A DNA stretch of 64,000 bases from assembly GCF_030384885.1 (NCBI RefSeq), contig NZ_CP128613.1; one strand, given 5' to 3'. A program made the translations under genes and the position numbers. This document shows, piece by piece, positions 56,165 to 58,150 of the stretch (positions within the stretch are counted from its first letter, which is position 1; every line of letters begins with the position of its first letter). The stretch is from Escherichia coli (GTDB lineage: Bacteria > Pseudomonadota > Gammaproteobacteria > Enterobacterales > Enterobacteriaceae). The notes below the pieces were generated by a model. That model was not told the DNA's origin. It was given only the letters and a program-made list of their open reading frames with translations, and made no database searches.

Positions 56165-58050
56165 GTGAGTAGGCCACCGGAACCTCCCCGACAGCCTCTC
56201 GCAGAACCGTACGTGAAACTCTCGCTTCATACGGCTCCCGTCAGGCAAACGCGCTTCCTGGTCCTGCTTTCCAGTGGGCAAACAACTCCGGCTTCTCTTT
56301 TGACAGCCTTTCCATTAGCTGACACGCCTTCGTCTTTCTATACCGCAGGGTTTTATATTTCTTTCTCGCCCACGCAATCAGCGTCAGATTAATATATCTG
56401 CATACTTTCTTCATCGCTGATTTGTGGTATCTCGCGTAATAATTCAGCCACCCCGATATTATCGGATTCAGCCACTTCGCAATATCTTCGAGACTCATCT
56501 CCACCCTGCGTCTGATCCACAGTTTCCTGAGTTTTCCAATCATGCCTTTCTGCGCAAGGTTACTCGCCGCCGGGCTGAAACTCGTAAAGAGGTTTCCCCG
56601 CCGGTGGTTGCGTGCTCTTCGCGCTCTGAACGTATACCCCAGAAAATCAAACTGCACTGTTTCATGGTTCGCCTGTCGTTCGCTGTCTTTGCAGTAAACT
56701 ATTTTCGTTTTCTCCGGATGTAATTCCAGTCCACATTCCTGAAAACGTTTTGCCAGCTTATTCAGTAATTCCTCTGCCTGTTGTTTACTGCCACAATGAA
56801 TTAATCCATCATCTGCATAACGGCACCAGGGAATTTCCGGATAATGTAACGTCAGCCATTTATCAAACACATAGTGCAGAAATAAATTCGCCAGTACCGG
56901 GCTGATGACTCCACCCTGTGGCGTACCTTTATTTCTTTCCTTCAGTGTTCCATCCGGCATCTGCACCGGCGCTGTCAGCCACCGGCGAATAGACAGTCTT
57001 ACCCATTTATCCGCACAATGTTTATCTACTGCCCTGAGTAATAAATCGTGGGGGATATTATCGAATAACCCTTTAATATCAAACTCAAGACACCAGTCGT
57101 ATTGCCAGCAACGTTTTCTGGTGACTGCTATTGCATCCAGCGCTGATTTTCCATGCCGGTATCCGTATGAATCATTCAGGAAATAACGCTCCACTAATGG
57201 TTCAAACGTTACCAGCACCGTCATCTGCGCTATTCGATCGCTTACTGTCGGTATTCCTAAAAGTCTTTTGCTGCCATCCTTCTTCGGAATTTCCACCGCA
57301 CGCACTGGCGGCGGCATCCAGCTTCCCGACGATAACCTGTTCCAGATTTTGTACAGATTTCCTTTCAGATCCCGCTCAAAATCTTTCAGCGTCTGGTTAT
57401 CCACTCCGGCAGCTCCGGCATTCGCCTTTATCCGCCGGTACGCTTCCACCACATGCAATTTACTGACCTGAAACGGTTTTGTCTGTTCACACACAGCCTC
57501 CTCCTGCCTACAGTTGGGCTGTGATGCAGACTGCCCGACGCTGTCCCTTCGCTCCACGTTCATTACAAACGCTTCCTCACTACTACGAACAGCTCTGCCC
57601 CGGTTTCGCACATCGATACTCTCATACTCATAATTTCGGTTATTTGTATTTCTCTCTTGACATTGCGACGACCGGTTCCCGTAGTTCCTGCAAAGAGCCC
57701 GATACAGCGTCATGCCTGCTATACACCGGACACCATTCACGCAGCATTCGGAATTCACCCGTAAATTAATCCCGGCGGTATCATGAAACCTCCGGTTTTG
57801 ATGTCACTTAGGACTAACGACGTTTCAACACAGGTTCGGGTTTACTCATCTCACTGTATCTCACATAGGATCAGATCTCGTCTGATCGTTCCCCCTGCGC
57901 TCACTACCATGGCTCTTTACCACAGCAGCCGGGGTTGTTTGGGACCGACTTCCGACAGCAGATCCCGGTGGGCCTGCCACCATCTCTTCACAAGCTTATG
58001 CTTATTACATGCAAAACGTCCCGTTTTGCATCTTTGTGCCTACGGCACAC
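56165..58050 (-). mobile_element. Group II intron (about 1.9 kb) encoding a reverse transcriptase/maturase; limits approximate
   Basis: Domain V-like 34-mer at 56204-56237 (sense GAGCCGTATGAAGCGAGAGTTTCACGTACGGTTC) directly after the RT stop; candidate 5' end GTGTG at 58050-58046; candidate 3' end ...CCTAC near 56169. Confidence 0.7.
56241..57563 (-). CDS. Group II intron reverse transcriptase/maturase (about 440 aa from Met at 57563; ORF is open to 57758)
   Basis: RT domain blocks (KPFQVSKLHVVEAYRRIKANAGAAGVDNQTLKDFE; GIPTVSDRIAQ; RYADDGLIH with the YADD catalytic motif) and a C-terminal maturase region. Confidence 0.85.
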   Translation of the reverse strand: MNVERRDSVGQSASQPNCRQEEAVCEQTKPFQVSKLHVVEAYRRIKANAGAAGVDNQTLKDFERDLKGNLYKIWNRLSSGSWMPPPVRAVEIPKKDGSKRLLGIPTVSDRIAQMTVLVTFEPLVERYFLNDSYGYRHGKSALDAIAVTRKRCWQYDWCLEFDIKGLFDNIPHDLLLRAVDKHCADKWVRLSIRRWLTAPVQMPDGTLKERNKGTPQGGVISPVLANLFLHYVFDKWLTLHYPEIPWCRYADDGLIHCGSKQQAEELLNKLAKRFQECGLELHPEKTKIVYCKDSERQANHETVQFDFLGYTFRARRARNHRRGNLFTSFSPAASNLAQKGMIGKLRKLWIRRRVEMSLEDIAKWLNPIISGWLNYYARYHKSAMKKVCRYINLTLIAWARKKYKTLRYRKTKACQLMERLSKEKPELFAHWKAGPGSAFA

Positions 58051-58150
58051 CGTGATCTTTCCCTGGTCCCTGTCCCGGATTGTAGTACCGGTGCCAGTTG
58101 TAGTGCAGTTCGGATTCGTCGTCATACTGCTAGCCCGGATGGCGGAGCAG
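58046..58150 (-). pseudogene. Decayed Rhs core-end remnant with an in-frame TAG
   Basis: Minus-strand translation ...[24 protein letters not shown]... aligns to the conserved Rhs core end [27 protein letters not shown]; the TAG at 58130-58132 replaces a Gln codon; similarity stops at the proposed intron 5' end. Confidence 0.6.

What the first reader, a model, noticed from the sequence alone, without database searches (positions are those of the whole stretch)
58046..58150. Second Rhs core-end remnant with an in-frame stop, ending exactly at the proposed intron 5' boundary
The minus-strand translation [24 protein letters not shown] is a diverged copy of the conserved Rhs core terminus, with a TAG where Gln is expected. 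Similarity stops a few codons before the GTGTG that I propose as the intron 5' end. This suggests a former downstream orphan core-end/CT/immunity module that was interrupted by the intron and ISAs1 insertions.
Basis: seen in the sequence. Interest (0 to 1): 0.5.

Follow-up and report, generated by a model that had tools for sequence, protein, structure and literature searches.

The report
Dead stub of orphan Rhs toxin cassette
The flagged 90 bases are a real but dead leftover of a spare Rhs toxin cassette, cut off by the end of an ISAs1 (H-repeat) insertion sequence that itself carries a known group II intron; this is ordinary and already annotated in related E. coli genomes.

Summary
Window 58156..58066 (minus strand) is a diverged copy of the Rhs core end: 76-77% nucleotide identity to the window's own core end, with HMM hits to TIGR03696 and RHS_core. 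The TAG (58132-58130) sits where CAG (Gln of PGQQ) is expected.

The boundary reading needs correcting. The similarity does not stop at the intron. It stops at 58066/58065, the outer tip of the left inverted repeat of a 1,291-bp ISAs1/H-rpt element (58065..54888). The intron (58050..56164, 1,887 nt, an E.c.I9-type intron known to home into the 'Rhs IS') lies 15 bp inside that repeat. It never touched Rhs DNA.

The 'former orphan module' idea is supported. About 398 complete E. coli genomes, including ATCC 8739, TOK-001 and cq9, keep the intact module at this locus. It has the same core end with the same TAG, a Tox-WTIP toxin domain and a 114-aa immunity gene. In PCN033 that toxin is fused to a full-length Rhs.

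In the window about 876 bp (toxin plus immunity) are absent from all 64 kb. The module was therefore deleted, not merely interrupted.

The stub shares at most 11 exact bases with the resident core and is an inert relic. Known biology, low interest.

The parts
58601..60124 (-). 3' part of the resident (internally deleted) rhs gene. The core ends at about 59048 (..[11 protein letters not shown]) and is followed by its own C-terminal toxin domain. The stub's paralogous stretch is 59222..59145.
   Evidence: NF041261 RHS_core 949-1261/1261, E=9e-202; TIGR03696 85 bits; PF03527; internal deletion relative to 2013C-4282.
58202..58600 (-). 132-aa ORF directly after the rhs stop, the presumed cognate immunity gene of the resident toxin (inferred from position only).
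   Evidence: Annotated as hypothetical protein WP_000425544.1 in related genomes. No Pfam family.
58066..58156 (-). Stub of the orphan Rhs core end ([29 protein letters not shown]). It is truncated before [10 protein letters not shown]...DPLGL, and its toxin and immunity parts are missing.
   Evidence: PGAP annotates the orthologous stub in YDC107 as a pseudogene, 'RHS repeat-associated core domain-containing protein; internal stop'.
58130..58132 (-). In-frame TAG at the position of the first Gln codon (CAG) of PGQQ. It is also present in intact orphan copies.
   Evidence: Alignments; translation of TOK-001; 'internal stop' notes for cq9 and ATCC 8739.
58051..58065 (-). Outer 15 bp of the ISAs1/H-rpt left inverted repeat (CAGGGAAAGATCACG). 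It also serves as the intron's 5' exon.
   Evidence: The same 15-mer heads ISAs1 copies in unrelated contexts in E. coli C, K-12 rhsC, N96 and 2017-02-2CC. It matches the right end in 16 of 21 positions.
56164..58050 (-). Group II intron of 1,887 nt (GTGTG...CTCACT), E.c.I9-type. The IEP gene (ltrA) is 57563..56241.
   Evidence: Rfam RF01999 93 bits and RF00029 63 bits; RVT_1+GIIM; TIGR04416 425 bits; empty-site comparison; 96% identical to the intron at this locus in ATCC 8739, the genome in which PMC3522654 Table 2 lists a single full-length E.c.I9.
54888..56163 (-). Remainder of the ISAs1/H-rpt element: inner left repeat TAACGC.., transposase 56034..54898, right end ..CGTAATCTTGCCCTG at 54888. 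The IS is 1,291 bp without the intron.
   Evidence: NF033564 transpos_ISAs1 408 bits, full length; DDE_Tnp_1; ends located.

Best explanation
The segment is the non-functional 5' stub (about 90 bp) of an orphan rhs 'C-terminal tip' cassette that once lay downstream of the resident rhs toxin/immunity pair at the rhsE-type locus (yncG...yddH/nhoA). In other E. coli the cassette is complete: a short, divergent, start-less core end that already carries the TAG, then a Tox-WTIP toxin domain, then a 114-aa immunity gene. In this lineage everything 3' of ..YYNPGQG (about 876 bp) was lost. The break coincides to the base with the outer tip of the left inverted repeat of an ISAs1-family H-rpt element. 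That points to an IS-end-anchored deletion. It could have arisen by transposase-mediated adjacent deletion, or by insertion into the core end followed by recombination with a second, directly oriented ISAs1 copy downstream. I slightly favour the second route, because different ISAs1 variants sit at the different junctions. The group II intron is a passenger of the IS: it homed into the IS left repeat at position 15|16 and played no part in truncating the Rhs DNA. The stub does nothing now. It has no start codon and no toxin or immunity part. It also lacks the conserved ..CAGGACCCGATAGGG.. stretch in which the recombination that fused this toxin to a full-length Rhs in PCN033 took place. Shown: identity of the stub, the IS and intron boundaries, existence of the intact module, and absence of the remainder. 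Inferred: the deletion mechanism and the order of events.
For: Homology of the stub to the Rhs core end. IS tip at 58065 and intron at 58050..56164 from empty-site comparisons with YDC107 (L001) and K-12 (L008). IS ends and the 1,291-bp length. Intact orphan at the same locus in TOK-001, ATCC 8739 and cq9, with about 398 genomes covering at least 80%. Tox-WTIP PF15654, E=2.4e-13. TIGR03696 85 bits for the intact orphan. PCN033 has the same CT on a full-length Rhs with the crossover in the conserved QDPIG-coding stretch. The remainder of the orphan is absent from all 64 kb, and the longest exact match between the stub and the resident core is 11 nt. A second, independent IS-tip junction 25 bp further into the same core end exists in YDC107-type genomes (about 158). 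The window-type junction is in 43 genomes. Other blunt truncations that abut the same IS tip occur in E. coli C, N96 and K-12 rhsC. No genome has the orphan simply split by the IS. Literature: partial core plus variable C-terminal 'tips' downstream of rhs genes, and their association with the H-repeat (PMC3032704, citing Jackson 2009, PMC2935791); E.c.I2 and E.c.I9 target the Rhs IS (PMC3522654).
Against: The deletion mechanism is not demonstrated. None of the ISAs1 copies inspected has flanking direct repeats, so the absence of repeats here is uninformative. The ISAs1 copies next to the intact orphan (TOK-001: AGAAGT-type left end; cq9 and PCN033: other positions) are not the same variant as the window's (TAACGC-type), and YDC107's IS body is only 92% identical to the window's. 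No sampled genome is therefore a direct ancestor, and a simple one-step 'same IS, adjacent deletion' history is not supported. The right flank of the IS also differs between genomes that share the window-type junction (L003 vs L004). Immunity function of the ORFs is inferred from position only.
Confidence: 0.9

Rival explanations
1. One reading: an orphan core-end/CT/immunity module was split by insertion of the intron and of ISAs1, so the intron 5' end marks the break and the rest of the module should lie beyond the insertions.
For: The stub does lie immediately upstream of the IS/intron block, and the GTGTG is a genuine intron 5' end.
Against: 15 bp of IS repeat separate the stub from the intron. 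The intron occupies the same position in ISAs1 copies at unrelated loci. The remainder of the module is nowhere in the window. No complete genome has the right IS end followed by the orphan remainder; the one candidate, MB06233, is a different arrangement.
Confidence: 0.04
2. The stub is a chance resemblance or low-complexity match and not Rhs-derived.
For: It is short (about 28 codons) and scores below the TIGR03696 cut-off (28.5 vs 32.5 bits).
Against: E-values run from 1e-6 to 1e-11 in four independent tests. It is 96-99% identical to the 5' part of an orphan that continues into a full TIGR03696 match of 85 bits in other strains.
Confidence: 0.01
3. The stub is retained because it is useful. 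It might serve as a recombination landing pad for acquiring new toxin tips, or as transcribed leader sequence that drives read-through into the IS and intron, which need sense transcription to splice and home.
For: The stub, IS, intron and transposase are all co-oriented with rhs and the immunity ORF. No terminator-like site was found between 58700 and 57900, so read-through is plausible. The junction is conserved in 43 genomes across about 3% divergence of the intron.
Against: Only 11 nt of exact identity with the resident core and 77% overall identity, which by general knowledge is too little for RecA-dependent exchange. The most conserved core stretch, used for the PCN033 crossover, is deleted. 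Read-through needs no particular stub sequence. Conservation is explained by linkage.
Confidence: 0.05

Closest known systems
Orphan rhs-CT/immunity modules ('C-terminal tips'; C-terminal displacement model of Jackson et al. 2009, PMC2935791, as summarised in PMC3032704)
   Same: It lies downstream of and co-oriented with a resident rhs toxin/immunity pair. It starts with a short piece of core end and has no start codon. Orthologues carry a distinct toxin (Tox-WTIP) plus an immunity gene. In PCN033 the same toxin is fused to a full-length Rhs, as the displacement/recombination model predicts.
   Different: In this window only about 90 bp of the core-end piece survives; the toxin, the immunity gene and the PxxxxDPxGL boundary are gone. 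It is a scar of such a module, not a module.
H-rpt / ISAs1-family elements of E. coli Rhs loci (ISEc1-like; ydcC, ybfD, yafF-type genes)
   Same: A 1,291-bp element with CAGGG... ends and imperfect terminal inverted repeats, and a full-length ISAs1 transposase (408 bits). It sits at the distal end of an Rhs element, as in K-12 RhsB, RhsC and RhsE.
   Different: It carries a 1,887-nt group II intron within its left repeat. It has no flanking direct repeats, which is true of every copy inspected here.
E. coli group II intron E.c.I9 (and E.c.I2), which home into the Rhs IS (PMC3522654)
   Same: It is 96% identical to the intron at this locus in ATCC 8739 (L010), the genome in which PMC3522654 lists a single full-length E.c.I9. 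It has the same homing position in the IS left end. The 5' intron fragments widespread in other E. coli match the 'E.c.I9 fragments' reported in that paper.
   Different: It is a sequence variant, 3-4% diverged from the ATCC 8739 and Combat11I9 copies. No reference E.c.I9 sequence was available to me, so the name rests on the ATCC 8739 link.

Membership tests
RHS repeat-associated core domain (TIGR03696) / RHS element core protein (NF041261) | HMM match at or above the curated cut-off | tested here: not met
   The stub scores 28.5 bits against a cut-off of 32.5 and covers positions 15-43 of 76. The intact orthologous orphan from TOK-001 scores 85.4 bits over positions 15-76. The stub is therefore derived from the family but is only a fragment.
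RHS repeat-associated core domain (TIGR03696) / RHS element core protein (NF041261) | Terminal PxxxxDPxGL motif that marks the core/toxin boundary | tested here: not met
   It is absent from the window's stub, which ends at ..YYNPGQG. It is present as [11 protein letters not shown] in TOK-001, cq9 and PCN033.
Orphan rhs-CT/immunity module | Downstream of and co-oriented with a resident rhs plus immunity gene; begins with a partial core end; lacks its own N-terminus and start | tested here: met
   The order on the minus strand is rhs 60124..58601, ORF 58600..58202, stub 58156..58066. An in-frame TGA lies 3 codons upstream of the homology and the TAG lies within it.
Orphan rhs-CT/immunity module | Carries a variable C-terminal toxin domain followed by a cognate immunity gene | tested here: not met
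   blastn and tblastn with the TOK-001 CT and immunity sequences find nothing in the window beyond the core ends. Both are present in about 398 other genomes.
ISAs1-family insertion sequence (H-rpt) | ISAs1 DDE transposase | tested here: met
   NF033564 408 bits against a cut-off of 70, profile positions 1-314/314. PF01609 and PF13808 also match.
ISAs1-family insertion sequence (H-rpt) | Terminal inverted repeats | tested here: met
   The left end (with the intron removed) is CAGGGAAAGATCACGTAACGC and the right end is CAGGGCAAGATTACGAAAGCC, identical in 16 of 21 positions. That ISAs1 ends typically begin CAGGG is from memory of the ISfinder family table.
ISAs1-family insertion sequence (H-rpt) | Target-site direct repeats flanking the element | tested here: not met
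   The left flank is ..GGGAC and the right flank is GGTGTTT... No repeats were seen at any of the copies inspected.
Mobile group II intron (E.c.I9-type) | Ribozyme domains (D1-D4, D5/D6) and an intron-encoded RT/maturase | tested here: met
   RF01999 93 bits (gathering score 36) and RF00029 63 bits (gathering score 40). TIGR04416 425 bits (cut-off 300).
Mobile group II intron (E.c.I9-type) | Precise boundaries defined by an empty homing site; 5' GUGYG | tested here: met
   The empty site is CAGGGAAAGATCACG|TAACGC in YDC107 and K-12. The occupied site is ..ATCACG|GTGTG......CTCACT|TAACGC. The 3' end reads ..CACU rather than the usual AY. A candidate EBS1 CGTGA at intron position 310 could pair with TCACG; this pairing was not otherwise verified.

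The most novel reading that the evidence does not exclude
The left tip of the H-rpt/ISAs1 element may be an active deletion-maker that repeatedly prunes whatever lies to its left. This would include orphan Rhs toxin cassettes (two independent junctions 25 bp apart in the same core end), group II intron copies and neighbouring ISAs1 copies. Every such junction seen is blunt at the CAGGG tip. If so, an IS family for which transposition has reportedly never been observed (PMC3032704) would be shaping Rhs toxin repertoires by transposase-driven adjacent deletion, possibly with a preference for its own CAGGG-like sequences.
Probability: 0.2. Interest if true: 0.35.

Novelty: already known. Interest (0 to 1): 0.1.

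Why it matters
It matters little beyond correct annotation. The stub should be labelled an rhs pseudogene fragment, as PGAP already does in YDC107. The intron should be assigned to the ISAs1 element rather than to rhs. The locus gives a tidy allelic series across E. coli: an intact orphan, the orphan promoted to the main toxin (PCN033), and two truncated forms. This series illustrates how spare Rhs toxin/immunity cassettes are gained, reused and lost next to H-rpt elements.

Tried and rejected
1. Microhomology or slippage deletion between the CAGGGA in the core end and the CAGGGA of the IS tip. Rejected: both copies are retained at the junction (GGGACAGGGAC|CAGGGAAAG), so the join is blunt.
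2. Window-type junction derived from a TOK-001-type ancestor by one adjacent deletion. Not supported: the IS left-end variants differ (TAACGC vs AGAAGT) and the introns are only 96% identical.
3. Window-type junction without the intron. A synthetic query found only the 25-bp-longer YDC107 form among the 12 best hits (all in 2 pieces spanning 123 bp). I could not inspect all 158 hits.
4. The 5'-only intron fragments as abortive retrohoming products. Rejected by reasoning: incomplete reverse transcription leaves 3' fragments, not 5' fragments.
5. The protein database search with the orphan core end returned only short fragments. It confirmed the PGQQ consensus but did not identify a donor lineage.
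6. Literature searches for H-rpt plus group II intron and a look-up of Dai & Zimmerly 2002 by PubMed id found nothing held.
7. The EBS2/IBS2 search gave no convincing pairing.

Full report
**What is at the coordinates**

On the minus strand, 58150..58046 translates to [34 protein letters not shown]. The region reads, 5' to 3' on the minus strand:
- the 3' part of an rhs gene (60124..58601; RHS_core HMM positions 949-1261, E=9e-202);
- a 132-aa ORF (58600..58202);
- the flagged stretch;
- a group II intron (Rfam D1-D4 at 57981..57864 and D5/D6 at 56239..56164; RT/maturase ORF);
- an ISAs1 transposase gene (56034..54898).

**Is the Rhs similarity real?**

Yes. An unsupervised repeat search returns 58068-58145 vs 59145-59222 (78 nt, 76%) as the top repeat family of the region. 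blastn gives 77.5% over 71 nt (E=6e-11). tblastn pairs the peptide with the resident core end [26 protein letters not shown] at 65% identity (E=4e-9).

The peptide also hits NF041261 RHS_core at positions 1201-1229 of 1261 and TIGR03696 at positions 15-43 of 76. The TIGR03696 score is 28.5 bits (E=1.7e-6), below the 32.5-bit cut-off only because less than half of the domain remains.

The TAG at 58132-58130 aligns with the first CAG of PGQQ in three comparisons: the resident core, the PCN033 core, and core-end proteins from Salmonella and E. coli such as [40 protein letters not shown]. Those proteins also show that homology reaches back to about 58156 (EQLLR).

**Where the similarity ends, and why**

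megablast against 5,426 complete E. coli genomes breaks cleanly at 58066/58065, not at the GTGTG at 58050.

The intron-less strain YDC107 reads ...GGGACAGGGAC GATATATCACACAGACCCGATAGGG | CAGGGAAAGATCACG | TAACGCTGC.... The window reads ...GGGACAGGGAC | CAGGGAAAGATCACG | GTGTG...intron...CTCACT | TAACGCTGC....

The 15-mer CAGGGAAAGATCACG heads ISAs1 copies in unrelated places: the E. coli C yafV locus, the K-12 rhsC H-repeats, N96 and 2017-02-2CC. Its partner..CGTAATCTTGCCCTG, ends at 54888. With the intron removed, the two ends match in 16 of 21 positions.

The mobile element is therefore 58065..54888, 3,178 bp in all: a 1,291-bp ISAs1/H-rpt element plus an 1,887-nt intron (58050..56164) inserted between positions 15 and 16 of the left repeat.

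**The intron is a known passenger of this IS**

Every full-length copy recovered (82 genomes) has the same 15-bp 5' flank, whatever the locus. PMC3522654 states that E.c.I2 and E.c.I9 specifically target the Rhs IS, and its Table 2 lists a single full-length E.c.I9 in ATCC 8739. ATCC 8739 carries the intron at this very locus, and that copy is 96% identical to the window's. I therefore call it an E.c.I9-type intron. The name rests on that link, because I had no reference sequence.

**Was there an orphan module?**

Yes. In TOK-001, ATCC 8739 and cq9 the same sequence continues: [62 protein letters not shown]. It is followed by a 120-aa C-terminal domain matching Tox-WTIP (PF15654, E=2.4e-13) and by a 114-aa ORF. 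About 398 genomes hold at least 80% of this module. The intact orphan scores 85 bits on TIGR03696.

All intact copies inspected carry the same TAG, and PGAP notes 'internal stop'. The stop therefore predates the truncation, and it is irrelevant to a start-less cassette.

In PCN033 the same toxin and immunity pair is the main C-terminus of a full-length Rhs. The crossover lies in the conserved ..ATCCAGGACCCGATAGGG.. stretch. This is the behaviour described for rhs 'C-terminal tips' (PMC3032704, citing Jackson et al. 2009, PMC2935791).

**What happened in the window's lineage**

The remaining ~876 bp of the module are absent from the entire 64-kb window. The module was deleted, not pushed to the far side of an insertion.

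A synthetic query joining the IS right end to the orphan remainder found no genome in which the orphan is simply split. The single hit, MB06233, is a different arrangement with an ISAs1 upstream of a whole orphan.

Two truncated forms exist:
- the window-type junction (GGGAC|CAGGG), found in 43 genomes with the intron 5' end;
- the YDC107-type junction, 25 bp longer and without the intron, in about 158 genomes.

Both joins are blunt at the IS tip. They are not explained by the CAGGGA microhomology, because both copies of it are retained.

The same kind of blunt truncation abutting the IS tip is seen elsewhere:
- an intron 5' fragment in E. coli C, a form present in about 2,400 genomes;
- another intron fragment in N96;
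- a 371-bp ISAs1 fragment in K-12 rhsC.

I conclude that the loss was anchored on the IS end. Whether it was a transposase-mediated adjacent deletion, or an insertion followed by recombination between directly repeated IS copies, cannot be settled. The IS variants and right flanks differ among alleles. Flanking direct repeats are absent from all copies, so their absence here is uninformative.

**Function**

None is likely. The stub has no start codon, contains a stop, and has no toxin or immunity part. It shares at most 11 consecutive identical bases with the resident core, and it lacks the conserved stretch used for recombination in PCN033. No terminator-like site lies between the immunity ORF and the IS. 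It is probably transcribed passively with the co-oriented IS and intron, but that needs no specific stub sequence.

**Comparison with what is known, and verdict**

The pieces are all described: orphan rhs tips, H-rpt/ISAs1 elements at the distal ends of Rhs loci, and the intron that homes into the Rhs IS. NCBI's pipeline already annotates the orthologous stub in YDC107 as an rhs pseudogene fragment with an internal stop.

It is partly wrong: the intron is not the cause, and the event was a deletion rather than an interruption.

Novelty: already known. Interest is low. The only mildly open point is whether H-rpt left ends actively generate these blunt deletions.

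Noticed in passing
L002 (E. coli C, NZ_CP029371) 5001-5190; L006 3843-4015; L008 (K-12 rhsC) 5611-5990: There are recurrent blunt truncations abutting the ISAs1 left tip. E. coli C has IS tip + 159 nt of the intron 5' end + a second IS tip + IS body, a form present in about 2,400 genomes. N96 has an intron fragment ending 9 nt earlier, followed by a full IS::intron. K-12 has a 371-bp ISAs1 fragment followed by the next copy's tip.
   Followed up: partly
L011 (cq9) 5967-5979 and L009 (PCN033) 5919-5931; compare L005 4007-4021: A solo IS-tip-like 13-mer, CAGGGGAAGATCA, lies 24 bp after the orphan immunity gene and is followed by a perfect 11-bp hairpin, with the real ISAs1 100-225 bp further on. 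In TOK-001 and ATCC 8739 the IS::intron starts at exactly this 13-mer. It could be a scar of an earlier IS or a recombination site.
   Followed up: no
window 59978-59981 (compare L003 2217-4720): The resident rhs gene has an internal deletion of about 2.5 kb relative to strain 2013C-4282, so it is itself a pseudogene (the largest ORF is 507 aa). A vgrG C-terminal fragment (61013..60381, Gp5_trimer_C) and a GST gene (62344..61727, yncG-like) lie upstream, resembling the K-12 rhsE state.
   Followed up: partly
window 54048-54683 (minus strand): A 211-aa ORF lies just beyond the IS right end. It has no Pfam hit and is annotated as hypothetical (WP_032184207.1) in 2013C-4282. The same right-flank sequence follows another ISAs1 copy in 2017-02-2CC (L007 9938).
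   Followed up: no
L005 4007-5980 vs window 58065-56140: Two ISAs1 left-end variants exist (..GATCACG|TAACGCTGC.. and ..GATCATC|AGAAGTTCAC..). The intron occupies position 15|16 in both, which suggests that homing depends mainly on the 15-bp 5' exon.
   Followed up: partly
window 56164-56170: By empty-site comparison the intron 3' end reads ..CUCACU rather than the usual ..AY.
   Followed up: no
L004 (Combat11I9) 4061-5925: This genome has the same stub/IS junction as the window, but the intron is a 97%-identical variant with a 22-nt deletion and a frameshifted, stop-containing ltrA. This is a decaying copy that shares the junction.
   Followed up: partly
L012 (MB06233, NZ_CM129883) 3900-6029: An ISAs1 replaces vgrG-rhs-immunity upstream of the WTIP orphan, whose 5' core-end piece here resembles the regular E. 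coli core ([22 protein letters not shown]) rather than the divergent TAG-bearing version.
   Followed up: partly
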